NCBI GenBank assembly: GCA_043809585.1
Contig: JBDROZ010000043.1
Span: 1-32,638, forward strand
DNA length: 32,638 nucleotides
Origin: Candidatus Eiseniibacteriota bacterium
Lineage (GTDB): Bacteria > Orphanbacterota > Orphanbacteria > Orphanbacterales > Orphanbacteraceae
Reading direction: 5' to 3'
The stretch's first letter is position 1, and every line of letters starts with the position of its first letter. A program made the position numbers and the translations under genes. Below the pieces are notes generated by a model. That model was given only the letters and a program-made list of their open reading frames with translations, ran no database searches and had not been told where the DNA came from. Of the stretch, positions 7,798 through 18,232 are shown piece after piece.

Positions 7798-7895
7798 ACC
7801 CCGCTCATTTCAAAGCGATGAGTCCGGGACGGCTGTTGTATAATGTAGAGGTGCTTGCGTCGCTTCCCCTGCCCGACCCATCCGGAAGGAGTCCC

Positions 7896-10800
7896 GTGCG
7901 CCACCTGATTTCCGCGGCCGTCGCCGCCCTCTTTCTCGTCCCCTCCCTCTCCCCCGGCGGGACGCCGTCGCCGGAGGATTGGCGGGACCAGTCGATTTAC
8001 CAGATCATGACCGACCGGTTCTTCGACGGCGACCCCTCGAACAACGCCGTGGAGGGGAACTACGACCCGAACGACGGCTACAAGATCCACGGCGGCGATT
8101 GGGCGGGCATCGAGGCGAAACTGGACTACATCCGCGGACTCGGCATGACGGCACTCTGGATCTCGCCGGTCCAGAAGAACGCCTACGCCGACTACCACGG
8201 CTACTCGATTCAGAACTTCTACGAGATGGCCCCCCACTTCGGCGGGATGGCGGACCTCCGCTCCCTCGTCGACACGCTGCACGCCTCGGGCATGTACATG
8301 ATCCTCGACGTGATCGCGAACCACGGCGCGAATCTGATCGACTCGGCCGACCCGGACTGGCCCGCCTATCACGACCCGGGGGACTACACGCTCCGGTGGA
8401 CGAACCCGTCGAAGAGGCACGCCCCCCCCTTCGACGATCTCTCGCTCTTCCACAACCATGGGCACATCGGCGACTACAGCGACCCGGAGCAGATCCTCGG
8501 CGAGCTTTGGGGGCTCGACGACTTCGCCACCGAACTGCCCGCGGTCCGGGGCGCGCTGATCGAGGCGCACCGGTGGCTCATCGACACGGTCGACGCCGAC
8601 GGCTTCCGCATCGACACGGTGAAGCACGTGGAGCTCGACTTCTGGCAGGAGTGGGGACCGGCGATCACGGCGTACACCGACTCGATCGGGAAGGCCGGCT
8701 TCTTCCAGTTCGGCGAGATTTTCGACGGGTCGAGCTGGAAGAACGGCATCTACACGGGGACCCAGGCGGGCGGGCCTTTCGCTCTCGAGTCGACCCTTTG
8801 GTACCCGATGTTCTTCGCGTCCGGGTGGGTCTTCAAGGACGGCGGGCCGACGGAGGCCCTCGACTGGGTGTACGGCGACTCGACCTACTACGACCCGACC
8901 GCGCGGAATCGTCTCGTGAAGTTTCTGGACAACCACGACAACGCGCGCTTCATGGGATTCGGGTCCGCCGCGGACCGGGACGAGGCGAAGGCGATGGTCG
9001 CACAGGCGTGGATGTACTCCTCCCTCGGCGTCCCCTGCATCTACTACGGGTCGGAACAGGAATTCGACGGGGGCGGCGACCCGTGGGACCGGGAGGACAT
9101 GTGGGACGGGGGGTGGGACTTCGGCCCGTCCGAGGGGGACAACTTCGACCAGGCCGCCCCCCTCTACCGGCGGATCCGGCGGATGAACGAGATGCGCCGC
9201 CAGCTCCCGGCCCTCCGGCGGGGGGCGCAGCGGCGGCTCGCGGGCGCGCCCGGTCCGGGCCTCTACGCTTACGTGCGGACAATGGCGGGGGAGTCGCCGG
9301 TGGTGGTCGCCTTCAACACGAAGAAGGAGGCGGACACGCTCGCCGTCCCGACGGGCCTCCCCGCCGGAACCGCGTACGATCTTCTCTCGGAGCGTACGGT
9401 GACCGTCCTTCCGGGCGGCGCCGTCCACGTCGTCGTCGGCGGGATGTCCGCGGTGTGGCTCGCGCCGGAACCGCCCGATCCCGCCCCATGGGTGGAGCGG
9501 ACATGGCCCGCCCACGACGGCGTCTTCCCGGGGCTCCGAGGCCGGATCGAGATCGCCTTCACGGAGCCTATGGACGAAGCGTCGGTCGAATCGAACATCA
9601 CCGCCCTTCCCCCCTTCGCCTACGGCGCCTCATGGACGGGCAACACGCTCGTGCTCTTTCCGGACGCCGACCTCGCCGACCAGACGACCTACACGGTGAA
9701 GATCGGATCCCCCGCGGCGGCGGCGGACGGAGACCCCCTCGGCGCGTCGTTCACCTTCTTCTTCCGCGTCGACGGAGGGGCGGCCCCGGTCGCCGTCCCC
9801 ACCGGATACCTCGCCGCGGCGATCCCGGGGGACGACCTTAGGACCCCCCTCTCCCTCGCCGCGGACGGCGGCGGGCGGCTCTTCCTCGGCGACACGGGGT
9901 GGGACCGGATCTACCGCACCAACGACACATGGAAGGTCGAGACGGCCGTGGCCGACTCTCTCGTCAAGAGACCGAACGGGATCGCCTTTGACCGGGAGGA
10001 GGGGCTCTTCGGCGGCGACCTCCTGATCTCCGACTCGGGGGGGCTTCTCCGGGTTGCGGGGGAGGGGGACGACGGGGGACTCGTCCGGAAGATCGCCGCC
10101 TGGCCGGGCGGGGGGACGACGTGGGCCCTCGCCGTCGACCGGGCGGGCGGATTCGGCGGGAGGGCGTATGTCGGTTCCCCCTCTTCCTCCTCCCTCTACG
10201 CGGTCGACGGAAACGGAACCGTTTCGGTCTTCGCCGGCGGTCTCGGCTCGGTGACCGGCCTCGCCTTCTCCGAGGGGGGGCCCTTCGGCGAATTCCTCTA
10301 CGCCGCGGACGGGAGCGGGTCGGTCCGGCGGATCGACGCCTCGGGCGTCGTCACCACCTTCACGAACGACGGAACTCTCCTCGGCGGCGCGGCGGCCCTC
10401 GCCTTCGACGGGACCGGGCTCTTCGGCGGGGACCTCTTCGCCGTGAACCCGACCCGGCAGGAGATCGTGCGCATCGAGCCCACGGGCGCGGTCTCCTCCT
10501 TCGCCTCCGGGTTCGGGTCCCTCTCGGGCCCGGGCGGCCTCGCCTTCGCCGGGCTCGGCGATCTCTATGCCGTCGAGACGGGCGCGACGGGAAGCCCCCG
10601 GATCGTCAAGATCGCCGCCGCCGATGCGGACACGGGGGTCCCCGGCAGTGATCCGGCGCCCCCTCCGACGCACCGTTTCCTTCTGGGGGGCAACCGGCCG
10701 AACCCGTTCAACCCGGAGACGGCGATCTCCTTCGAGCTCCCGAAGCCGGGGCGGGCGCTCCTTACGATCCACGACATCCGGGGGGCCCTCATCCGCACGC

Positions 10801-10949
10801 TCGTGGACGCCGACCTCGGGGACGGCCCCCACGAGAAGACATGGGACGGCACGAACGACGAAGGGCGCGGCGCCGCCTCGGGAATCTACTTCTCGCGCCT
10901 CCGCTACAAGGGGCTGGAAGAGACGAAGCGGATGGTCCTCCTCCGGTAG
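7896..10949 (+). CDS. Secreted GH13 alpha-amylase family glycosidase with Ig-like (Big_5), beta-propeller and FlgD-Ig C-terminal domains
   Basis: Probable GTG start at 7896 after AAGGAG, with a signal peptide. IYQIMTDRF.DGD, YHGY, ILDVIANH, catalytic DGFRIDTVKH, GEIF, FLDNHD; FTEPMD..SV Ig domain; NRPNPFNPET...SGIYF..KRMVLLR C-terminal domain. Confidence 0.93.
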   Translation: MRHLISAAVAALFLVPSLSPGGTPSPEDWRDQSIYQIMTDRFFDGDPSNNAVEGNYDPNDGYKIHGGDWAGIEAKLDYIRGLGMTALWISPVQKNAYADYHGYSIQNFYEMAPHFGGMADLRSLVDTLHASGMYMILDVIANHGANLIDSADPDWPAYHDPGDYTLRWTNPSKRHAPPFDDLSLFHNHGHIGDYSDPEQILGELWGLDDFATELPAVRGALIEAHRWLIDTVDADGFRIDTVKHVELDFWQEWGPAITAYTDSIGKAGFFQFGEIFDGSSWKNGIYTGTQAGGPFALESTLWYPMFFASGWVFKDGGPTEALDWVYGDSTYYDPTARNRLVKFLDNHDNARFMGFGSAADRDEAKAMVAQAWMYSSLGVPCIYYGSEQEFDGGGDPWDREDMWDGGWDFGPSEGDNFDQAAPLYRRIRRMNEMRRQLPALRRGAQRRLAGAPGPGLYAYVRTMAGESPVVVAFNTKKEADTLAVPTGLPAGTAYDLLSERTVTVLPGGAVHVVVGGMSAVWLAPEPPDPAPWVERTWPAHDGVFPGLRGRIEIAFTEPMDEASVESNITALPPFAYGASWTGNTLVLFPDADLADQTTYTVKIGSPAAAADGDPLGASFTFFFRVDGGAAPVAVPTGYLAAAIPGDDLRTPLSLAADGGGRLFLGDTGWDRIYRTNDTWKVETAVADSLVKRPNGIAFDREEGLFGGDLLISDSGGLLRVAGEGDDGGLVRKIAAWPGGGTTWALAVDRAGGFGGRAYVGSPSSSSLYAVDGNGTVSVFAGGLGSVTGLAFSEGGPFGEFLYAADGSGSVRRIDASGVVTTFTNDGTLLGGAAALAFDGTGLFGGDLFAVNPTRQEIVRIEPTGAVSSFASGFGSLSGPGGLAFAGLGDLYAVETGATGSPRIVKIAAADADTGVPGSDPAPPPTHRFLLGGNRPNPFNPETAISFELPKPGRALLTIHDIRGALIRTLVDADLGDGPHEKTWDGTNDEGRGAASGIYFSRLRYKGLEETKRMVLLR

Positions 10950-11012
10950 GGAACGGCTAGTCAAGCCCTCTTTCCGGGCCTCGGGTGCAGGATCCGGGGC
11001 CGTTTCCTCTGG

Positions 11013-11052
11013 TTAATTATTGTTGACATTGTCCGGGCGGACCTGATATAGT
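11013..11052 (+). promoter_or_regulatory. Strong sigma70-type promoter for the Cys-repeat/radical SAM locus
   Basis: AT-rich UP-like element TTAATTATTG, perfect TTGACA (11023-11028), 18 nt, TG-n-TATAGT (11044-11052). Confidence 0.75.
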
Positions 11053-11166
11053 TTCCTGGTCGAATACATCATCGTGCTTCATCACTCGCATCCAGACGCG
11101 CCTTACGGACGATCGGGTCTTTTCTACGCTCCGACTGCCCTCCACCCCCGGACACCAGGAGGGAGC

Positions 11167-11346
11167 ATGTTTTCGCGCTCGAGACCCCGGACCGACAACT
11201 CCCTCGCGCGGGCGTCCTTCGCCATGCCGGAGGCGCAACCCCCGACCACGCATCTTCCCCATTCGATTCACGCCAATACCGGCCGGTCGCGGCCGTTCCG
11301 ATTCATGCGGCACAACGCAAATTCGACGGGAGGGCTTGTTCCATGA
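11167..11346 (+). CDS. Putative 59-aa small ORF translationally coupled to the Cys-repeat gene
   Basis: SD AGGAGG at 11157-11162, ATG at 11167, high GC3 over the first ~20 codons; its TGA overlaps the next ATG (ATGA, 11343-11346). Confidence 0.4.
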   Translation: MFSRSRPRTDNSLARASFAMPEAQPPTTHLPHSIHANTGRSRPFRFMRHNANSTGGLVP

Positions 11347-12416
11347 AGCGTCGCGGGTTTATTCGATTCCTGCCCCTCTGGGCCATCGGAGGCTCCGTGG
11401 CGATGCGGTCTCTCGCCGCGAGCCTCATCGGGCTGCTCTTCTCGAAGAAGGGAGAGTCGGCCGGGCCGGAGCACATCCGGATGATCGGCGGGGAAGATCA
11501 GAACGTCGCCTCTGAAAAGACGAAGTGCCGCTCCACGGAGATGACGGGAGAGATCCCCCACGGATGCAGCAGCCCGGAGTACATCGCGAGCGGCGACAGC
11601 TGCACCGACACGATCCAGAAGAACCTGTGCGAGAGCCCGATCCAGATCGAGAACTGCCAGACCCGGGAGCAGGCCGAGCGGTGCGTAAGCGAGAACCAGA
11701 TCAACCGGTGCTACAACACCACACAGCACAACAACTGCACGATCGAGTCGCAGTGGAACCGCTGTGAGAACCAGGCCCTGTACGATCAGTGCACCTCCAC
11801 GAAGCAGATGATGGAGAAGTGCACGACCCCGGAGCAGCACAACCTGTGCACGACGGAGCGCCAGTACAACAACTGCGAGAGCGTCGAAAATAAGAACAAG
11901 TGCAGCTCCGTCGCCCAGCTCGAACAGTGCAGCACGGACAAACAGAAGAACAACTGCAAGAGCCCCGTGCAGGTCGACAACTGTCAGAACTCCACGCAGA
12001 TCAGGAAGTGCGAGACCACCGCCCAGTGGGAACAGTGCACGAGCGCGAAGAACAAGAACATGTGCGACTCGCCCACCCAGTACAACAACTGCAGCAGCAC
12101 CGAGCACCTCGACCAGTGCTCCAACGATACGTCCAAACTGAAATGCAAGAGCACCGCGCAGATCAACAACTGCCCGAATCCGAGCCGGATCGACGAGTGC
12201 AAGAACGACACGAACGTCGGCCAGTGCACGAGCAAGAACCTGCTCAAGAAGGTCAACAAGTGCACGACTCCGGCCCTGGGCGAGTCATGCACGAACTTCA
12301 ACGCGAAGGACTCCTGCACGAGCGCAACGCAGATCATGGGATGCGTCACGGGCGTGCAGATCAAGACGATCCGGGGGAATTGCAGCAGCAGGCTGCAGAA
12401 GCAGTACTCGGGATAG
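11343..12416 (+). CDS. Twin-arginine Cys-rich repeat protein (31 Cys, 9-residue period); putative radical SAM substrate/RiPP-like precursor
   Basis: SD GGGAGG. N-terminus KRRGFI plus a hydrophobic stretch. 25 of 30 Cys-Cys spacers are exactly 8 aa; high GC3; directly upstream of an rSAM/SPASM gene. Confidence 0.85.
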   Translation: MKRRGFIRFLPLWAIGGSVAMRSLAASLIGLLFSKKGESAGPEHIRMIGGEDQNVASEKTKCRSTEMTGEIPHGCSSPEYIASGDSCTDTIQKNLCESPIQIENCQTREQAERCVSENQINRCYNTTQHNNCTIESQWNRCENQALYDQCTSTKQMMEKCTTPEQHNLCTTERQYNNCESVENKNKCSSVAQLEQCSTDKQKNNCKSPVQVDNCQNSTQIRKCETTAQWEQCTSAKNKNMCDSPTQYNNCSSTEHLDQCSNDTSKLKCKSTAQINNCPNPSRIDECKNDTNVGQCTSKNLLKKVNKCTTPALGESCTNFNAKDSCTSATQIMGCVTGVQIKTIRGNCSSRLQKQYSG

Positions 12417-12452
12417 CCGCCCCCGCCTGGCGCGGCGCGCATGAGGAGACGC

Positions 12453-13943
12453 ATGATCGAACCGGCACGACGGGAATCGGAAACCCCTCCGGTCGGGAAG
12501 GAACCCGCCGGGGGGGCGAAAGGACCCTCCCTCCATTTCTTCGAGGTCGAGGGAGCGCGCCACGTGTTCGACCCCGAGAGCGGCCGCTTCTTCCGGATCG
12601 ACGAGGCGGCGGAGCTCGCCATCCGTCTCTTCCAGGAGCGCGCCCCGGAAGAGGAGATCCGGAGACGGCTCTCGGATGCTTTTCCGCCGGGCCCGGCGGA
12701 AAGCGCGCTCCGGGAAGTGTCCGATCTCGTGGCGAAGGGACTCCTCTGCGCGAGGCGGCAAGAACCGGAAGAGAAGCCCGCGCGGGGGGCGGTCAAACCC
12801 CGCATGGTGTCGGTCACTCTCAACGTGGTCTCCTCCTGCAACCTCTCCTGCATCTACTGCTGGAACAAGGGGGGCACCTACGGGAGGACGACGCGGGAGA
12901 AGCGGATGACCGCGGAGACGGCGATCCGCGCGATCGACCTCGCGGTCCTGAACTCCTTGGAGACCGACCAGATCCTCATCGACTTTTACGGCGGAGAGCT
13001 GCTTCTTAACTTCGAGGTGCTCCGGGCCGCCATGGAGCACTGCGAGAAGATCTCGAAGGAGACGAAGCGGACCTTCTCGTACAAAGTGACGACCAACGGG
13101 ACCCTTCTGACCGAAGAGATGGTCGCCTTCTTCGACAGGATGGGCGTCTCCCTCGGGGTCAGCATCGACGGGACGAAGAAGATCCACGACCGGAACCGGC
13201 CCTTCCCTGACGGCAAGGGGACGTGGAAGGAGATCCAGAAGAACATCAGGGCGGCGGTGGAGGCGGGGAACATCCACGTCTCCGCCCGGGCGACCCTCGT
13301 CCCCCCCGACCTCGACATGGTGAAGGCGCTGAAGGGACTCTTCCGCCTCGGCTTCCGGGACACGGAGATCGAGTTCGCCTCCGAGCCGTGCGAGCTCTTC
13401 AACCCGAACGGCACGGTGAAATTCAGCGACGCCGACATCGACAGAATGAAAGAGGAGTACCTGAAGTTCGCCAAGTTCTACCTGGGCTACGCCCTTCACG
13501 GGGACGAGGCGATCGACGTGGGGATCAGCAACAACCTGACGCGGGTCCTCCACGAAAGCCACCGCTTTTCCCCCTGCGGGGCGGGGAGCAATTTCGCCTG
13601 CGTCACCGAGGAGGGGAACCTCTACCCGTGCATGGGATTCATCGGGATGCCGGGCTACAAGCTGGGAACCGTGGAGTCGGGGTTCGACATCGAGAAGCTC
13701 GAGTCCTTCCGGCACGACATGAGAACCGTGGTCTTCGAGGCGGAGGAGTGCGACGGCTGCTGGGCCCGCTACGTCTGCGCCGGCAACTGCCCCGCCAACA
13801 ACGTGCAGTACAACCAGAAGATCTTCGAGCCCCACAAGCGGAGCTGCGACTGGCTGAAGTTTCAGCTCGAGACGGCCATGTGGGTCGCGTCGGAGCTGCA
13901 GAGGAAGAAACCGGACCGGCTCGCGGGATACGAGCCGGCCTGA
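12453..13943 (+). CDS. Radical SAM/SPASM peptide maturase with an N-terminal RRE (PqqD-like) domain; CteB/QhpD/anSME-like
   Basis: CNLSCIYC (CX3CX2C), FYGGEL, TTNGTLL, VSIDG...HDRNR; SPASM C-x12-G-x4-C ... CX2CX5CX3C-x18-C; N-terminal FFEVEGARHVFDPESGRFFRIDE followed by helices. ATG 12453 has SD GAGGAG; 12441 is an alternative start. Confidence 0.93.
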   Translation: MIEPARRESETPPVGKEPAGGAKGPSLHFFEVEGARHVFDPESGRFFRIDEAAELAIRLFQERAPEEEIRRRLSDAFPPGPAESALREVSDLVAKGLLCARRQEPEEKPARGAVKPRMVSVTLNVVSSCNLSCIYCWNKGGTYGRTTREKRMTAETAIRAIDLAVLNSLETDQILIDFYGGELLLNFEVLRAAMEHCEKISKETKRTFSYKVTTNGTLLTEEMVAFFDRMGVSLGVSIDGTKKIHDRNRPFPDGKGTWKEIQKNIRAAVEAGNIHVSARATLVPPDLDMVKALKGLFRLGFRDTEIEFASEPCELFNPNGTVKFSDADIDRMKEEYLKFAKFYLGYALHGDEAIDVGISNNLTRVLHESHRFSPCGAGSNFACVTEEGNLYPCMGFIGMPGYKLGTVESGFDIEKLESFRHDMRTVVFEAEECDGCWARYVCAGNCPANNVQYNQKIFEPHKRSCDWLKFQLETAMWVASELQRKKPDRLAGYEPA

Positions 13944-14000
13944 CCGGGAACCGGGGAATAAGAGAACGGGAGCGCCCGAGGCTCCGAAGGGGTGGATGCC

Positions 14001-15911
14001 ATGAATGGGAATCGCGTAACGAACCGGAGAAGGGGCCGGGGGGAGCCCGATCCGCGGTTCCGCGGCTCTCGGCTCGGAGCCGTGCTCTTCTCGTGCGCCC
14101 TCGCGGCGGTCCTGCTCGCTCCGGGTTCCGCCCGGTGCATCGCCGATCTCACGGTGATGCAGGGCTTCCACGAGCCGATCGCGGAAGCGGGCGGAGAGTT
14201 CCTGATGGACTTCCAGGTCCTGAACCTCGGTCCCGATTCCACGTCGATCAGCGGCATCTCGAACTACGTCTTCCTCTGGGACCCGGCCCTGGAGGATCCC
14301 CTGGCTCAGCTCAGCCCCGTGACCGGCCACAATGTCCATATCTGGCGATCCCTCGCGCCGGGCGAGATCGTCCTGGTCGGCCCCTTCACGGTGACGATCC
14401 CCTGGGACACGCCGCTCGACACGGTCGTCACGGTGGCGATCGCCACGGACTGGCTCGACTTCGAGGTGGAGCCGAACGAGACGAACAACATGGTCATGTT
14501 CGACGTCCCCGTCGAACCCCTCACGATGAGTCTCGGTCCCGGGGGCGCCTCGTTTTGCGACACCCTCGGGGAACCCGGAGCGGTCCATCGATATCAATTC
14601 TCGGGTACGCCGGGGCAGATGGTCTTTGCCGAGACTTTCGGTGAAGGTCTCCAGTCCTTCCTCGATCTTTACTCCCCCTCCTCCGGGGAGGGCCTCGCGG
14701 GGGACGGCGACATCGAAGAGATCGGGGAGAGGAGCCGGATCAGCTACATCGATCTCCCCCTCCCGGAACAGTACCGCATCGCCCTCGGGGGGAGGGGTGA
14801 TGCCGGCGGTCCGTACTGCCTGCTCCTGCAGGAGGGTCTGCCCGAGCTCGAGCCGAACGACGACTTCGGTTCGGCGGGCCTCCTTCCGATCGGCCATGTG
14901 GCCTACGGGACCCTCGGCTATCCGGGGGACGCCGACTACTACATGATTCAGGCTCCGCCCGGCCGGATCGTCACGATCGACGTGGACGCCGACGAGGCGC
15001 TCGAGGCTCTTCCCGACTCGACGCTCGATCCCCAGATCGCCATCTTCGGCCCGGGCAGCGAACCGTTCGAGGTCGTCGACGACACCTACGAGTACGACCC
15101 CCACTTCTCCTTCGTCATTCCCGATCCGGGTCCTTACTTCTTCAAGATCGAGGGCCCGCCGGGAGACGGCGTGGGAGGCGGATACCCCGAACATGGTTAC
15201 GTGGTGCGGCTCCGGGACGACGGACCGGCCACCCAGGATCTCCTGGCGGAGAACGTTACGCCCGCCGGGGAACCGTGGTACATGGACTGCCCCATGCAGC
15301 TCGACTTCACGGTGACCAACGTCGGCGGGAACCGCACCTACGCCGGGGTTGTGACGGTGACGATCGTTCTCTCGAACGACCCGCTCCTCGATCCTCTCGA
15401 CACGCTCCTCGCGGTGGGCGACTTCCTCGGAGACCTGGAGGCGGGGGAGACCACGAGCCGGACCGTCTTCGTCACGGTTCCGCCCGAGTGGAACGAATCG
15501 GCGGCTTACGTCGGCATCGTCGTCGATCCGACGGAGAGCGAGGTGGAGACGGATGAGACGAACAACTCCCTCCTCGTCCCGGTCCTCATCGATCCCTCGC
15601 AGATCGGAACCGGAACAAGCGGCGCGGTTCCCTCCGTGAACGCCCTCCATCCCAACCGGCCGAACCCGTTCAATCCGGCGACGGGCATCGGCTTCTCGCT
15701 GGAGAGACCGTCGAGGGCCGTCGTGAGGATCTTCGACACGGCGGGCCGCGAGGTTCGAACCCTGGTCGACGCGGACCTCCCCGCCGGTCCCCACTCGGTC
15801 TCCTGGGACGGCAGGAACGACCGGGGCCAGGAGGTCTCCACGGGAATCTACTTCTATCGGCTGGAAGCGGGCGACTTCCGGAGCACCCACAAGATGGCGC
15901 TTCTTCGCTGA
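14001..15911 (+). CDS. Secreted multidomain protein: CARDB - PPC-like - PPC-like - CARDB - FlgD-Ig C-terminal domain
   Basis: Signal peptide (LGAVLFSCALAAVLLAPGSARC); two DL..V...E.[ND]ETNN CARDB-type motifs; ELEPNDD..A...GD.DYY PPC motif; NRPNPFNP.T...TGIYFYRL..HKMALLR C-terminus. No catalytic motif seen. Start is 14001 or 13992. Confidence 0.8.
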   Translation: MNGNRVTNRRRGRGEPDPRFRGSRLGAVLFSCALAAVLLAPGSARCIADLTVMQGFHEPIAEAGGEFLMDFQVLNLGPDSTSISGISNYVFLWDPALEDPLAQLSPVTGHNVHIWRSLAPGEIVLVGPFTVTIPWDTPLDTVVTVAIATDWLDFEVEPNETNNMVMFDVPVEPLTMSLGPGGASFCDTLGEPGAVHRYQFSGTPGQMVFAETFGEGLQSFLDLYSPSSGEGLAGDGDIEEIGERSRISYIDLPLPEQYRIALGGRGDAGGPYCLLLQEGLPELEPNDDFGSAGLLPIGHVAYGTLGYPGDADYYMIQAPPGRIVTIDVDADEALEALPDSTLDPQIAIFGPGSEPFEVVDDTYEYDPHFSFVIPDPGPYFFKIEGPPGDGVGGGYPEHGYVVRLRDDGPATQDLLAENVTPAGEPWYMDCPMQLDFTVTNVGGNRTYAGVVTVTIVLSNDPLLDPLDTLLAVGDFLGDLEAGETTSRTVFVTVPPEWNESAAYVGIVVDPTESEVETDETNNSLLVPVLIDPSQIGTGTSGAVPSVNALHPNRPNPFNPATGIGFSLERPSRAVVRIFDTAGREVRTLVDADLPAGPHSVSWDGRNDRGQEVSTGIYFYRLEAGDFRSTHKMALLR

Positions 15912-15921
15912 TCGGAAACGG

Positions 15922-16074
15922 CCATTCCGGGTTCTCTTTCCGGGGGCCTTTGGGGGACACAATACCGAATAGGTGATTCGGGGGACACAATACCGAATCG
16001 GAGTTCCGTATTGTGTCCCCCCGCCCAGGAGTTCCGTATTGTGTCCCCCCGCCCATTCCGGGTTCTCTTTCCGG
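15922..16074. repeat. Nested REP-like palindrome cluster flanked by a 22-bp direct repeat
   Basis: CCATTCCGGGTTCTCTTTCCGG at 15922-15943 and 16053-16074. GGGGGACACAATACCGAAT at 15952 and 15980. GGAGTTCCGTATTGTGTCCCCCCGCCCA in tandem at 16000 and 16028. 14-bp inverted arms GGGGGACACAATAC/GTATTGTGTCCCCC. Confidence 0.9.
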
Positions 16075-16217
16075 CCCCGGGCGCGAGTCCGGGGCCTTTT
16101 CTCGGTTCAGGGGAGGAAAGGACGATTCCGGCAGTCGAGCAAGGGGAGACCGGCGGGCTGGTTTCCCCATGACGTCCTCTCGGTCCGGGGCCGCCCCTGT
16201 CGGCCGCACTCCCCTCC

Positions 16218-16246
16218 TTGCCGGACTGGTTCCGGACCGGTACACT
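16218..16246 (+). promoter_or_regulatory. sigma70-type promoter
   Basis: TTGCCG (16218-16223), 17 nt, TACACT (16241-16246), about 40 nt before ATG 16286. Confidence 0.55.
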
Positions 16247-16285
16247 CGGTCCGATCGTCCGTCGCAGAGTGGGGGAATGTGAGTC

Positions 16286-18232
16286 ATGTTCGAGTTCATG
16301 CGGGGGAAAGAGACGCTTCTCGGGGCGGTGCTCGTCACGGCGCTCGCCCTGCTTCCCTATGCCGGCACCCTCGGCAACGATTTCGTCTGGGCGGACCAGA
16401 CGGTGATCGTCGACGGCGAGGCGATCCTGAAATCGCCGGGCGATCTCGCCCGGGTCTTCGTGAAGCCCCTCTGGTCATTCACGGGCGCGCCCGCCCCCGG
16501 GGGGGGCGGATACTACCGGCCGGTGACGGCGATTTCCTACACCATCGACCACGCGCTTTGGGGATTGAACCCGGCGGGGTATCACGCCACGAACATCCTG
16601 CTTCACGGAGCGGTCACCCTCTTTCTCTTTCTCTTCTTCGCAGGGCTCTTCCCGAAGAGCCGGGTCCCTCTCCTCGCCGGAATCCTCTTCGCCGTCCACC
16701 CGATCCATACGGAGGCGGTCGCGTGGATTTCGGGACGCACGGGGCTGCTCGCCGCCCTCGGCGTCGTCCTCTCCCTCTTCCTCTACCGGCGCCCCGGGAA
16801 CCGCCCCCTCTTTCTCGCGGGGAGTCTCGCCGCCTTCGCTCTCGGCCTCGGCGCGAAGGAGAGCGCCGCGGTCCTCCCCCTCCTGGTCCTCCTCACGGCC
16901 TGGTGGTCGAGGAAGCCGGGCCGGCGTCTTTTCGCGTGGAACCGGGAAGGGCTCTATTTCGCCCTCCTGGTTCTCTACCTCGTCGTCCGGCGGGGCGCCC
17001 TCGGCGCCTTCGGCACCGGGAACCCCGAGACCATCGAACCCCTCGTCCTCGTCCCGACCATGCTCCGGGCGCTGGGCGGCTACCTTCGTCTCCTCTTCAT
17101 CCCCTGGCCGCTCCACACGAACGACGGGATCCGCCTCTCGACGTTCGTGCTCGAACCGAAAGTTCTTCTCTCCCTCCTTTTCCTCGGGGCCTTCGTCTAC
17201 GCCGTCCTCCGGTACGGCCGGGACCGGCGGGAGACGAGGTTCGGTCTCCTCTGGATGGGGGTCGCGCTCCTCCCCTTTCTGAACGTCCTTCCCCTCCTCC
17301 ACTTCCGAGCGGAGCGACTCATCTACCTCCCATCGGCCGGATTCGTCCTCGTGGCGGCGGCCCTCCTCGACCGGTGGGGGGACCGCATCCTCGGCAAAGG
17401 GAAGCGTCTCGGCCTCACCCCGGGTGAACTGGCGACCGCCACCCTCGCCCTCCTCCTCGCCTTCGGCACCGCGGCCCGATGCCGGACCTGGAAGAACGAC
17501 TACACCCTCTTCATGGACACTCTCGCCAAGAACACCTACGCGCCGGAAGCGTGCTACATGCTCGGCGCCGAGGCCTACCGGAACGGCGCCTACCCCGAAG
17601 CGGCCCGTCTCTTCCGTGCCTCCCTCTCCCTCGAACCCGGGTGGGCGGCCTACCTCCCCGTACCGTGGGCCCTGGCGAACCTCGGGTTCGCGGAGTACAA
17701 AGGCGGCGATCCGGAGAGCGCCGAGGAGGCGTTCCGGGAGGCCCTCCGCTTCTATCCGGGGATGGAGAAGGCCTCTTTCGGCTTGGCTCTCGCCGCTTCG
17801 GCCTCCGGCCGGCACGAGGAATCGATCGAGAGCTACCAGGCGATCCTGGCGAAAAACCCGAACCACGAGGACGCGAGGTACAATCTCGCTCTCGAATATG
17901 AGAAGTCGGGCGCCTTGGCGGACGCGGAACGGGAGTACATCCGGGTCGTGCGGCAGAACCCGCGCCGGAAGGACGCCTTCATGAACTTGGGATCCCTCGT
18001 CGCCCAGTCGGGACGGTACGCGGAGGCGATGGAAGCGTATCGGGGCGCCCTCCGGGTGGCCCCGGCGGACCCCCGGGTCCACTACAACGTGGGCCTGCTC
18101 TTCGCCGTTACCGGCGAGAGAAAAGGGGCTATCGAGGCCCTCCGCACCGCCCTCGAGTTCGATCCCGGCTACGAAGAAGCGCGCCTCCTCCTCGAGGAGA
18201 TCACCGCCCCCGATTCGCTGCCGGGGGGTTGA
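16286..18232 (+). CDS. TMTC-like GT-C membrane glycosyltransferase with C-terminal TPR repeats
   Basis: YYRP, YH..N..LH, LFAVHPIHTEAVAWISGR, AKES, AERLIYLPS and W.N...LF motifs; multiple TM helices; about 6 TPR units. Confidence 0.88.
   Translation: MFEFMRGKETLLGAVLVTALALLPYAGTLGNDFVWADQTVIVDGEAILKSPGDLARVFVKPLWSFTGAPAPGGGGYYRPVTAISYTIDHALWGLNPAGYHATNILLHGAVTLFLFLFFAGLFPKSRVPLLAGILFAVHPIHTEAVAWISGRTGLLAALGVVLSLFLYRRPGNRPLFLAGSLAAFALGLGAKESAAVLPLLVLLTAWWSRKPGRRLFAWNREGLYFALLVLYLVVRRGALGAFGTGNPETIEPLVLVPTMLRALGGYLRLLFIPWPLHTNDGIRLSTFVLEPKVLLSLLFLGAFVYAVLRYGRDRRETRFGLLWMGVALLPFLNVLPLLHFRAERLIYLPSAGFVLVAAALLDRWGDRILGKGKRLGLTPGELATATLALLLAFGTAARCRTWKNDYTLFMDTLAKNTYAPEACYMLGAEAYRNGAYPEAARLFRASLSLEPGWAAYLPVPWALANLGFAEYKGGDPESAEEAFREALRFYPGMEKASFGLALAASASGRHEESIESYQAILAKNPNHEDARYNLALEYEKSGALADAEREYIRVVRQNPRRKDAFMNLGSLVAQSGRYAEAMEAYRGALRVAPADPRVHYNVGLLFAVTGERKGAIEALRTALEFDPGYEEARLLLEEITAPDSLPGG

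What the first reader, a model, noticed from the sequence alone, without database searches (positions are those of the whole stretch)
11013..15911. Candidate new 'Cys-every-ninth' radical SAM protein-crosslinking system: precursor + RRE-rSAM-SPASM + secreted scaffold
Seen: a dedicated near-consensus promoter precedes three closely spaced co-oriented genes (gaps about 36 and 57 nt): a 357-aa protein with 31 periodic Cys, a radical SAM enzyme with an N-terminal RRE and 7-Cys SPASM motif, and a secreted CARDB/PPC/FlgD protein. Known: RRE-rSAM-SPASM enzymes of the CteB/PapB/QhpD type install Cys-to-carbon thioethers on the adjacent Cys-rich gene product, and periodic-Cys targets are described with periods of 4 (CXXX-repeat) and 5. 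Inference: this is a ranthipeptide/sactipeptide-like system acting on a protein-sized substrate with up to ~30 iterative crosslinks at a 9-residue period, which I do not recognise from any described family. No protease or dedicated exporter is encoded in the locus, suggesting a full-length stapled protein rather than an excised peptide.
Basis: partly seen in the sequence, partly recalled or inferred. Interest (0 to 1): 0.92.

Follow-up and report, generated by a model that had tools for sequence, protein, structure and literature searches.

The report
Cysteine-every-ninth protein with dedicated radical-SAM stapler
A rare, unnamed gene cassette pairs a 357-residue protein carrying a cysteine at every ninth position with a peptide-crosslinking radical-SAM enzyme that most likely staples it about thirty times before export, extending a chemistry only just shown on whole proteins.

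Summary
The operon has a promoter (11023-11052), three genes and a terminator (16073-16096). The genes are a 357-aa protein with 31 Cys (25 of 30 spacings are exactly 9), an RRE/radical-SAM/7-Cys-SPASM enzyme, and a secreted all-beta protein.

The enzyme falls below every NCBIfam cut-off. In a tree it forms its own clade beside the SCIFF and QhpD-like reference clades. All 6 of 6 foreign loci whose enzyme is at least 43% identical carry a Cys-period-9 gene directly upstream. These loci are Krumholzibacteriota-labelled MAGs, one metagenome contig and one Nitrospirota MAG. Five of the 6 also carry the third gene.

The repeat consensus is C-T-S/T-x-x-Q-I-N/D-K. A conserved leader motif (HIRMIGG) is predicted to dock on the RRE. 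Krumholzi-type precursors start with a twin-arginine-like signal.

Best reading: iterative Cys thioether stapling of a whole protein in the cytoplasm, followed by Tat export. The chemistry is untested, and so is the acceptor residue.

The idea is not without precedent. CrpA/CrpC (2026) and QhpC/QhpD already show radical-SAM thioethers on proteins. This is therefore a new family and variant, not a new kind.

The parts
11023..11052 (+). sigma-70-like promoter TTGACA-18-TATAGT with TG before the -10 hexamer
   Evidence: 11 of 12 matches; 1 site found in 10500-16500 against 0.3 expected from shuffles
11053..11342 (+). long 5' leader (about 290 nt) ending in a GGGAGGG Shine-Dalgarno sequence
   Evidence: no Rfam family; across 6 loci only the GGAGG is conserved
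11343..12416 (+). precursor/substrate protein, 357 aa, 31 Cys
11343..11450 (+). twin-arginine-like signal (M-K-R-R-G-F-I-R-F, then a Gly/Ser-rich hydrophobic stretch with an internal basic residue)
   Evidence: R-R-x-F-[LIMV] read by eye in 8 of 8 Krumholzi-type N-termini. TIGR01409 scores only 14.2 bits (cut-off 16.7) in 1 of 5 tested. TatC is present in the genome
11472..11492 (+). leader recognition motif H-I-R-M-I-G-G (aa 44-50)
   Evidence: H44 and G49 are invariant in 7 precursors. It is the only confident precursor contact with the RRE in the complex model
11526..12413 (+). Cys-every-ninth repeat body (aa 62-357); consensus C-T-S/T-x-x-Q-I-N/D-K
12441..13943 (+). RRE / radical SAM / SPASM maturase (500 aa; the database form starts at 12453)
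12837..12860 (+). CX3CX2C radical-SAM cluster motif (CNLSCIYC, aa 133-140)
13575..13847 (+). SPASM region with 7 invariant Cys (aa 379-469)
13992..15911 (+). secreted five-domain all-beta protein (CARDB-like, two PPC-like, CARDB, C-terminal FlgD_ig tag)
16073..16096 (+). intrinsic-terminator-like hairpin (10 pairs, 9 G-C) followed by a T-run

Best explanation
The core system is two genes. One encodes a repeat protein with a Cys every ninth residue. The other encodes a dedicated RRE/radical-SAM/SPASM enzyme from the CteB/PapB/QhpD supergroup of thioether-forming maturases.

Proposed steps:
1. The enzyme's N-terminal RRE holds the substrate by a conserved leader motif (HIRMIGG, aa 44-50).
2. The catalytic domain works through the 31 units. 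In each unit it joins the Cys sulfur to a carbon of a nearby residue. The most likely acceptors are Gln at +5 or Asn/Asp at +7 (equivalently, -2 from the next Cys). The link is most likely at a non-alpha carbon (ranthionine-type). Each link costs 2 H.
3. No protease is encoded, so the product stays a whole, multiply stapled protein of about 300 residues.
4. In the Krumholzi-type cassettes, including this window, the product then leaves the cytoplasm through the Tat pathway, which accepts pre-folded and crosslinked cargo.
5. Outside the cell it acts together with the co-conserved secreted Ig-like protein (gene 3).
6. The Nitrospirota version has neither a signal nor gene 3 and probably stays in the cell.

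Shown here: gene structure, periodicity, strict enzyme-substrate co-occurrence, family placement and the predicted leader-RRE docking.
Inferred: the thioether chemistry, the acceptor, the number of links, Tat export and any role of gene 3.
For: 1. Co-occurrence. A period-9 Cys ORF lies directly upstream and co-oriented in all 6 of 6 foreign loci whose enzyme is >=43% identical (L002, L082-L086). It was found next to the enzyme in none of the other 154 loci then held. Each of four relatives' genomes has one precursor gene, and it sits next to the enzyme.
2. Enzyme class. The best NCBIfam matches are nif11-type (253 bits), SCIFF (247), PapB (245) and QhpD (237.5) maturases. The closest solved structure is CteB 5WGG (E 4e-94, full length), and all 7 SPASM Cys align with it. 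The family forms its own clade (23 rows, SH-aLRT 98).
3. Substrate. All repeat Cys are invariant across 7 orthologues that share only 31-41% identity. Of 187 nine-residue units, Q occupies position 6 in 114 and N or D occupies position 8 in 128. The irregular spacings (13, 12 ... 10 ... 12 ... 13) keep their places among orthologues, which argues for one defined product.
4. Complex model. ipSAE was 0.69, 0.70 and 0.69; the best of 3 controls was 0.00. That mark was reached by 58 of 80 solved complexes and by 2 of 110 mismatched pairs. The runs agree in >=62% of contacts; the partner's pLDDT is >=43. The confident interface is RRE residues 45-57 and 81-98 (496-aa numbering) against precursor residues 43-50 and 52. 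A CteB-leader complex is solved, so this pass may reflect that likeness.
5. Precedent. CrpC places ranthionine links on the 28.8-kDa Cys-repeat protein CrpA (PMC13692751, sections 8, 12 and 14 read).
6. Export logic. R-R-x-F-[LIMV] is present in 8 of 8 Krumholzi-type N-termini, and the genome has tatC (213.8 bits).
7. Minimal cassette. Only these three genes are shared between the window and the related loci. In L086 the flanking genes are unrelated.
Against: - No chemistry has been measured.
- The acceptor is ambiguous. Neither position 6 nor position 8 is conserved as strictly as the Cys; about 10% of units carry Ala or Gly there.
- The AlphaFold2 model of the precursor is uninformative (mean pLDDT 39.9), so ring geometry cannot be checked.
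- The Tat signal is not confirmed by a profile. TIGR01409 is sub-threshold in 1 of 5 and absent in 4 of 5, and Pfam TAT_signal was not found.
- RRE support from Pfam PqqD is weak (4 of 24).
- Context is known for only 7 of about 26 family enzymes. The other metagenome proteins could not be placed on contigs.
- The tree lacks PapB, nif11 and CrpC references, and relations between the clades are unresolved.
Confidence: 0.6

Rival explanations
1. Multi-core RiPP precursor. The enzyme makes one small ring per nonapeptide unit, and an unlinked protease then cuts the chain into about 30 small cyclic peptides.
For: The units are contiguous and short, and many end in K or R (position 9 is K or R in 79 of 187 units). 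Repeated-core radical-SAM precursors are known, for example the poly-cyclopropylglycine peptide (PMC9062424, search listing and start of abstract only).
Against: Successive units are very different from one another, and each unit's sequence and the irregular spacings are conserved position by position among orthologues. That fits one folded product better than many equivalent cores. There is no protease or peptide exporter in the cassette or in the L086 flanks. An N-terminal Tat-like signal on a 357-aa chain argues for export of the whole protein.
Confidence: 0.08
2. The enzyme does act on this protein, but with another chemistry. Options are sactionine (S to alpha-carbon) links, C-C or C-O links, epimerisation, or Cys-to-formylglycine-type oxidation.
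For: SPASM enzymes with RREs catalyse many reactions. Variable residues at positions 6 and 8 would matter less for alpha-carbon links. The enzyme is below the cut-off of every thioether family.
Against: The four best-scoring curated families include three thioether formers on Cys (SCIFF, PapB, QhpD). The sactipeptide (RumMC, 115 bits against 720), anSME (96 against 349.45) and cyclophane families score far lower. The only invariant residue of the repeat is Cys. The 7-Cys SPASM pattern aligns with that of CteB.
Confidence: 0.17
3. The repeat protein is a disulfide-laddered or metal-binding secreted structural protein (antifreeze-like solenoid or metallothionein-like). The radical-SAM neighbour modifies only a few sites, or something else.
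For: Cys-ladder solenoids exist (insect antifreeze proteins, recalled). Tat cargo is often cofactor-loaded. The body is rich in T, S, N and Q.
Against: Enzyme and repeat protein co-occur in 7 of 7 known contexts across three phylum-level groups. The leader motif is predicted to dock on the RRE. The Nitrospirota homologue has no signal peptide, and stable disulfides are unlikely in a cytoplasm. A Cys spacing of 9 with no CxxC or His is unlike Fe-S or metallothionein sites.
Confidence: 0.1

Closest known systems
CrpA/CrpC of Methanococcus voltae (radical-SAM family TIGR04463); PMC13692751, 2026 (abstract and sections 5, 8, 12 and 14 read)
   Same: An RRE/radical-SAM/SPASM enzyme next to a protein-sized Cys-repeat substrate with a leader-like N-terminus. 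The product stays a protein. Ranthionine links are supported experimentally. There is no protease in the immediate cluster.
   Different: The enzyme is not a member: TIGR04463 scores 83 bits against a cut-off of 525. CrpA has a 17-residue motif repeated 10 times, with the acceptor at Cys+3; here a 9-residue unit occurs about 30 times. Here the host is bacterial, the N-terminus is Tat-like, and there is a conserved secreted partner instead of CrpB.
QhpD/QhpC (quinohemoprotein amine dehydrogenase gamma subunit)
   Same: A radical-SAM/SPASM enzyme with an RRE makes Cys-Asp/Glu thioethers in the cytoplasm on a polypeptide that is then exported and kept as a protein (as summarised in PMC13692751, section 5).
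   Different: TIGR03906 scores 237.5 bits against a cut-off of 453. The family is a separate clade from the QhpD-like references. QhpC has only 3 links. No qhpA/B/E/F-type genes were seen here. That QhpC's export route is not Tat is recalled, not tested.
PapB/PapA (freyrasin) ranthipeptide system
   Same: Iterative thioethers on a repeated Cys motif by one enzyme; tolerant of motif variation (PMC10739248, search listing and start of abstract only).
   Different: NF047865 scores 245 bits against a cut-off of 340. PapA is a short peptide with six CX3D motifs (recalled). There is no CX3D period here.
CteB/CteA (SCIFF), PDB 5WGG/5WHY
   Same: Closest solved structure (E 4e-94, aligned over RRE, core and SPASM; all 7 SPASM Cys aligned).
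   Different: TIGR03974 scores 247 bits against a cut-off of 425. It is a separate clade from 5 true SCIFF maturases. The SCIFF substrate is a peptide of about 45 aa.
Periodic-Cys target families defined by NCBIfam: CXXX-repeat (TIGR04115) and Cys-every-fifth CefA/CefB (NF038107)
   Same: The concept of a strictly periodic Cys target paired with a radical-SAM/SPASM maturase. By protein-language features, the nearest Atlas clusters to the precursor are CXXX-repeat targets (score 0.78, a lead only).
   Different: The enzyme scores 110.9 against 350 and 102.4 against 600. The precursor has no hit. The period is 9, not 4 or 5, and the size is that of a protein.
Unnamed sister-level group: radical-SAM/SPASM enzymes paired with short Lys/Arg-rich peptides ending in ...CRSGRVLW or ...FCRCGRVLW (Omnitrophota, Planctomycetota, Elusimicrobiota MAGs)
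   Same: Highest-scoring non-family homologues (260-392 bits on the family profile; 29-34% identity).
   Different: Their substrate is a 26-53 aa peptide with one or two Cys. They form a separate clade (22 rows, SH-aLRT 100). They too are absent from NCBIfam.

Membership tests
Radical SAM / SPASM superfamily with RRE | CX3CX2C cluster motif | tested here: met
   CNLSCIYC at aa 133-140, invariant in 24 of 24 homologues. Pfam Radical_SAM matches 24 of 24.
Radical SAM / SPASM superfamily with RRE | C-terminal SPASM Cys pattern (7 Cys, CteB-like) | tested here: met
   Seven invariant Cys align with those of CteB. The Pfam SPASM profile itself matches only 12 of 24.
Radical SAM / SPASM superfamily with RRE | N-terminal RiPP recognition element (PqqD-like winged helix) | tested here: inconclusive
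   PqqD scores 19.8 bits against a cut-off of 23.4 and matches 4 of 24 members. However, the N-terminus aligns with CteB residues 5-106 and forms the modelled leader interface.
SCIFF maturase (TIGR03974, CteB/ScfB) | score over the curated cut-off | tested here: not met
   247 bits against 425; separate clade from 5 members.
SCIFF maturase (TIGR03974, CteB/ScfB) | adjacent SCIFF peptide of about 45 aa with six Cys | tested here: not met
   The neighbour is a 357-aa protein with 31 Cys.
PapB family (NF047865) | score over the curated cut-off | tested here: not met
   245.2 bits against 340.
QhpD (TIGR03906) | score over the curated cut-off, and a qhp operon context | tested here: not met
   237.5 bits against 453. 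Only the three cassette genes are conserved, and no dehydrogenase subunits were seen.
nif11-like peptide maturase (TIGR04064) | score over the curated cut-off, and a Nif11-type leader on the substrate | tested here: not met
   253 bits against 518.7. The precursor has no Pfam or NCBIfam hit.
TIGR04463 (CrpC family, large Cys-rich targets) | score over the curated cut-off | tested here: not met
   83.1 bits against 525.
CXXX-repeat (TIGR04115) and Cys-every-fifth (NF038107) systems | enzyme over the cut-off; target period of 4 or 5 | tested here: not met
   110.9 against 350 and 102.4 against 600; the period here is 9.
Anaerobic sulfatase maturase (TIGR03942) | score over the cut-off; no RRE; sulfatase C/S-x-P-x-R target | tested here: not met
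   96 bits against 349.45. An N-terminal RRE-like domain is present, and no sulfatase lies in the cassette.
Ranthipeptide / ranthionine-containing product | Cys sulfur linked to a non-alpha carbon | not testable with these tools
   Needs MS/MS and NMR of the modified product.
Tat substrate | twin-arginine signal | tested here: inconclusive
   R-R-x-F-[LIMV] read by eye in 8 of 8 N-termini. TIGR01409 scores 14.2 bits (cut-off 16.7) in 1 of 5 and gives nothing in 4 of 5. Pfam TAT_signal was not found. tatC is present.

The most novel reading that the evidence does not exclude
Radical-SAM RiPP chemistry is used here to build a secreted structural protein rather than a small bioactive peptide. The roughly 290-residue body would be a continuous ladder of about 30 enzyme-made thioether rings, one per nonapeptide. 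It would be assembled in the cytoplasm and exported already crosslinked through Tat. At the cell surface it would be used together with a dedicated Ig-like partner, for example as a protease-proof rod, an adhesin or a mineral/metal-binding surface. That would be by far the most heavily stapled natural polypeptide known, and the first link between Tat export and RiPP-type maturation.
Probability: 0.3. Interest if true: 0.8.

Novelty: new variant of a known kind. Interest (0 to 1): 0.6.

Why it matters
If the chemistry is as inferred, this family would carry about five times more enzymatic thioethers per chain than any characterised ranthipeptide. It would add a second bacterial case, after QhpC/QhpD, and a structurally extreme one, to the very recent finding that radical-SAM 'RiPP' enzymes staple whole proteins.

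The strict 9-residue register gives a clean substrate for studying how one active site processes about 30 sites: its processivity, direction and acceptor rules. The short modular unit could also serve as a genetically encodable staple.

The Tat-like signal offers a testable explanation of how a pre-crosslinked chain leaves the cell.

The system is rare: 6 of about 185,600 species genomes by the pattern scan, counting the window's own. It occurs only in uncultured lineages, so it would not be found by activity screens.

Tried and rejected
- Precursor structure. AlphaFold2 on the 7-row alignment gave mean pLDDT 39.9 and pTM 0.17, so no fold claim is made. The Atlas's own model (pLDDT 0.38) resembled 'ALTTAQ repeat' models at TM 0.57, but Pfam gave no such hit even at E<=10. 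Dropped.
- Profile search with the precursor against 1.84 billion representatives. It returned 155 hits at E<=0.001, and 134 of the 150 listed have a modal Cys spacing of 9. Almost all are near-perfect tandem repeats of unrelated sequence, mostly in larger proteins. Only P0044, P0047 and P0050 are true fragments. The profile is not specific, so its counts were not used.
- Word-index search with the precursor alignment found only P0044. The precursor genes seem largely uncalled in public protein sets.
- Upstream leader. No Rfam family matches, and only the Shine-Dalgarno sequence is conserved across 6 loci.
- Expression. One groundwater metatranscriptome run (contigs) holds a 206-nt piece on the enzyme gene (1 mismatch) and a 157-nt piece on gene 3 (2 mismatches), and nothing on the precursor. 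Contigs from an RNA library do not show transcription, and a part without cover says nothing. Not used as evidence.
- Fold search of gene 3 returned only strings of Ig-like domains (complement C3, alpha-2-macroglobulin, S-layer) at TM <=0.18. There is no enzyme fold and no functional clue.
- A second 'period-9' ORF in L086 (12795-13064) is out-of-frame junk.
- Literature searches found no description of a Cys-x8 repeat system. The only relevant paper was PMC13692751. Its Supplemental Data set 1, which lists radical-SAM-associated Cys-rich proteins from all domains, could not be seen and might list relatives.
- Earlier scan findings. Nothing was held for this place or sequence. A word search returned other orphan radical-SAM/Cys-peptide cassettes only.

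Full report
**What is in the window**

Window positions 11013-16100 hold one compact operon.
- A near-consensus promoter, TTGACA-18-TATAGT at 11023-11052. It is the only hit in 6 kb, where 0.3 is expected.
- About 290 nt of leader with no Rfam match.
- Three co-oriented genes at 11343-12416, 12441-13943 and 13992-15911.
- A strong terminator-like hairpin at 16073-16096.
- A second hairpin at 10977-11001 closes the upstream amylase gene.

The first product is 357 aa with 31 Cys. Of its 30 spacings, 25 are exactly 9. None of 100,000 shuffles reached 10 such spacings. GC3 of this frame is 0.908, the same as neighbouring genes, so it is a genuine native gene. Its low overall GC (0.60) comes from the N/K/Q/T/S-rich composition.

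**The enzyme**

The second product has these features:
- CX3CX2C at aa 133-140.
- Seven SPASM Cys that are invariant in 24 homologues and align one-to-one with CteB.
- An N-terminal domain that aligns with the RRE region of CteB. Pfam PqqD is only sub-threshold: 19.8 bits against 23.4, and 4 of 24 members.

Against NCBIfam it is below every curated cut-off:

| Family | Score (bits) | Cut-off (bits) |
|---|---|---|
| nif11-type | 253 | 518.7 |
| SCIFF | 247 | 425 |
| PapB | 245 | 340 |
| QhpD | 237.5 | 453 |
| CXXX-repeat | 111 | 350 |
| Cys-every-fifth CefB | 102 | 600 |
| TIGR04463 (CrpC family) | 83 | 525 |
| anSME | 96 | 349 |

Five other family members gave the same picture.

**Relatives of the enzyme**

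A search of 5.8 billion proteins found 25 proteins at >=42% identity (E<=8e-127). The next hit drops to 34% (E 1e-77). On ORFs of all stored loci, a profile of the family scores >=748 bits for members and at most 392 bits for anything else.

I built an IQ-TREE 'quick' tree of 73 rows. Its contents were:
- 17 of the 25 family proteins. I left out P0003, P0009, P0010, P0012, P0013, P0014, P0018 and P0023 as redundant or partial.
- The enzymes of 6 family loci.
- 22 of the nearest outgroup.
- 5 true SCIFF maturases.
- 5 QhpD or QhpD-like enzymes, of which only 1 is over the cut-off.
- 18 other, more distant enzymes.

The family is one clade (23 rows, SH-aLRT 98). It is separate from the SCIFF clade (100) and from the QhpD-like rows, which were not recovered with support (SH-aLRT 50). 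Relations between these clades are unresolved. No PapB, nif11 or CrpC reference sequences were available for the tree.

**Co-occurrence, the key test**

I screened all 161 loci then held for ORFs with at least 8 Cys and at least 5 equal spacings.
- Every foreign locus whose enzyme is >=43% identical (6 of 6) has a period-9 Cys ORF directly upstream and co-oriented. These are L002 (a metagenome contig), L082-L085 (two labelled Krumholzibacteriota, two 'uncultured bacterium') and L086 (Nitrospirota).
- None of the other loci has one beside the enzyme.
- The orthologues carry 31-45 Cys, with 24-38 spacings of 9.
- Four relatives' genomes each hold a single precursor gene, next to the enzyme. So does the window's own genome.
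- Gene 3 has a full-length orthologue (34.8-38.0% identity) immediately downstream in 5 of 6 loci. It is absent from L086.
- Nothing else is shared between the window and these loci. The flanks of L086 are unrelated housekeeping genes.

The core is therefore two genes, plus gene 3 in the Krumholzi-type cassette.

**Distribution**

The system is rare and patchy.
- 5 loci plus the window's genome among the 185,579 species genomes scanned by pattern.
- 4 of 208 genomes in the phylum of L082.
- 1 of 401 sampled genomes at family level in the phylum of L086.
- 1 of 10 in the window's own phylum, and that one is the window's own genome.

The 10 versus 208 genome counts imply that the window's genome and L082 belong to different GTDB phyla. 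Yet the window's enzyme nests inside the Krumholzi-type subclade. That is compatible with lateral transfer, which I did not test.

**Anatomy of the substrate**

Across 187 nine-residue units from 7 proteins, the consensus is C-T-S/T-x-x-Q-I-N/D-K:
- Q at position 6 in 114 units.
- N or D at position 8 in 128 units.
- S or T at position 3 in 116 units.

All repeat Cys are invariant across orthologues that share only 31-41% identity. The only other invariant residues in the repeats are four Q6, two T2 and one S3. The irregular spacings sit at the same places in all Krumholzi-type proteins. This argues for one defined product, not a freely expanding array. L086 shows a weak five-unit super-repeat.

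At the N-terminus, 8 of 8 Krumholzi-type sequences begin with x-R-R-x-F-[LIMV]-[RG], followed by a Gly/Ser-rich hydrophobic stretch with an internal basic residue. In 4 of these 8 (L082-L085) an A-x-A-like site follows; the window's own sequence has no clear one. By eye this is a twin-arginine signal. The TIGR01409 profile, however, is sub-threshold in 1 of 5 and silent in 4 of 5, so I rate it likely, not shown. The genome does encode TatC. L086 has no hydrophobic N-terminus.

Downstream of the signal lies the motif H-[IVM]-x-[ML]-[IV]-G, which is HIRMIGG (aa 44-50) in the window.

**Enzyme-substrate docking**

I modelled the enzyme (alignment of 24 rows) with precursor residues 1-135 (alignment of 7 rows).
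- ipSAE was 0.69, 0.70 and 0.69. The best of 3 controls was 0.00.
- That mark was reached by 58 of 80 solved complexes and by 2 of 110 mismatched pairs.
- The runs agree in >=62% of contacts. The partner's pLDDT is >=43.
- The confident interface is enzyme residues 45-57 and 81-98 (RRE, 496-aa numbering) plus 476-490, against precursor residues 43-50 and 52. That is exactly the conserved motif.

Leader-RRE complexes of this class are solved (CteB), so the pass may reflect that likeness. It supports binding but does not show it.

**Gene 3**

- It has a Sec-type signal and five beta-sandwich domains (AlphaFold2 mean pLDDT 68.4).
- Pfam finds CARDB and FlgD_ig.
- The two middle domains carry an EPNDD...PGDVDYY motif that I recognise from memory as PPC-like.
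- The fold search gave only strings of Ig-like domains, with no enzyme fold.
- Its C-terminal FlgD_ig domain occurs at 147 places in this genome, including the upstream amylase. It is therefore a generic sorting tag.
- Its first ~530 residues have no paralogue in the genome.

Its role is unknown. Synteny alone links it to the system.

**Mechanism proposed**

1. The RRE grips the leader motif.
2. The radical-SAM core abstracts a hydrogen from a residue in each unit, and the unit's Cys sulfur closes a thioether. I expect the sulfur to bind the open iron of auxiliary cluster I as in CteB; this detail is recalled.
3. This is repeated up to about 31 times.
4. The candidate acceptors are Q at +5 or N/D at +7 (equivalently, -2 from the next Cys). 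CrpC shows that the acceptor's position can matter more than its identity: its acceptors at Cys+3 include M, D and V/L (PMC13692751, section 12).
5. Export of a pre-crosslinked chain fits Tat rather than Sec.

All of these steps are inference.

**Comparison with what is known, and novelty**

The concept of a radical-SAM thioether on a protein kept whole is already established. QhpC/QhpD has three links. Since September 2026 there is also CrpA/CrpC: a 28.8-kDa protein with a 17-residue motif repeated 10 times and ranthionine links (PMC13692751).

The system here fails the membership test of every curated family I could test. It differs in:
- enzyme clade;
- repeat unit (9 residues, about 30 copies);
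- the Tat-like signal;
- the conserved secreted partner.

My literature searches found no description of it. I could not see the supplementary list of Cys-rich proteins in PMC13692751. Other orphan radical-SAM/Cys-peptide cassettes are common in this scan, which tempers the surprise.

Verdict: real, conserved and undescribed. It is a new variant of a known kind, with interest 0.6.

Noticed in passing
L003-L009, L087-L138 (e.g. L087:1831-1908, L097:5890-5970, L109:5823-5930): The nearest non-family radical-SAM/SPASM enzymes (29-34% identity) sit directly downstream of a 26-53 aa Lys/Arg-rich peptide. Its C-terminus is almost invariant: '...KKLSRYCRSGRVLW' or 'M(I/V)RLLNR...YRAAFCRCGRVLW'. Of the 189 stored loci, 47 carry it, across Omnitrophota, Planctomycetota and Elusimicrobiota MAGs. 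The 3 peptides tried gave no NCBIfam hit. In the tree, 22 of these enzymes form one clade (SH-aLRT 100). This looks like an undescribed, widespread modified-peptide system.
   Followed up: partly
whole genome of the window (e.g. window 10710-10889 and 15684-15869): A FlgD_ig-type C-terminal domain ending in ...G(I/V)YFxR...LLR occurs at 147 places in this 4.2-Mb genome, mostly at the ends of large ORFs. It is evidently the lineage's general sorting tag for secreted or surface proteins.
   Followed up: partly
window 11053-11342: There are about 290 nt between the near-consensus promoter and the precursor start codon. The stretch has no Rfam family and no conservation across six loci apart from the Shine-Dalgarno sequence. 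What this long leader does is unexplained.
   Followed up: partly
window 11343-12416 and orthologues: The precursor genes seem to be missed by public gene calling. The 5.8-billion-protein index returned the window's enzyme but not its precursor, and only one frameshifted 213-aa fragment of a relative.
   Followed up: partly
L014:29-490: An ORF with 18 Cys, 14 of them spaced by 4 (CXXX-repeat-like), lies about 5 kb upstream of a distant radical-SAM homologue on a metagenome contig.
   Followed up: no
window 7818-10949: A 1043-aa secreted alpha-amylase with a Big_5 domain, a Gly-rich beta-propeller-like region and the same C-terminal tag sits just upstream. It is not part of the cassette in other genomes.
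   Followed up: partly
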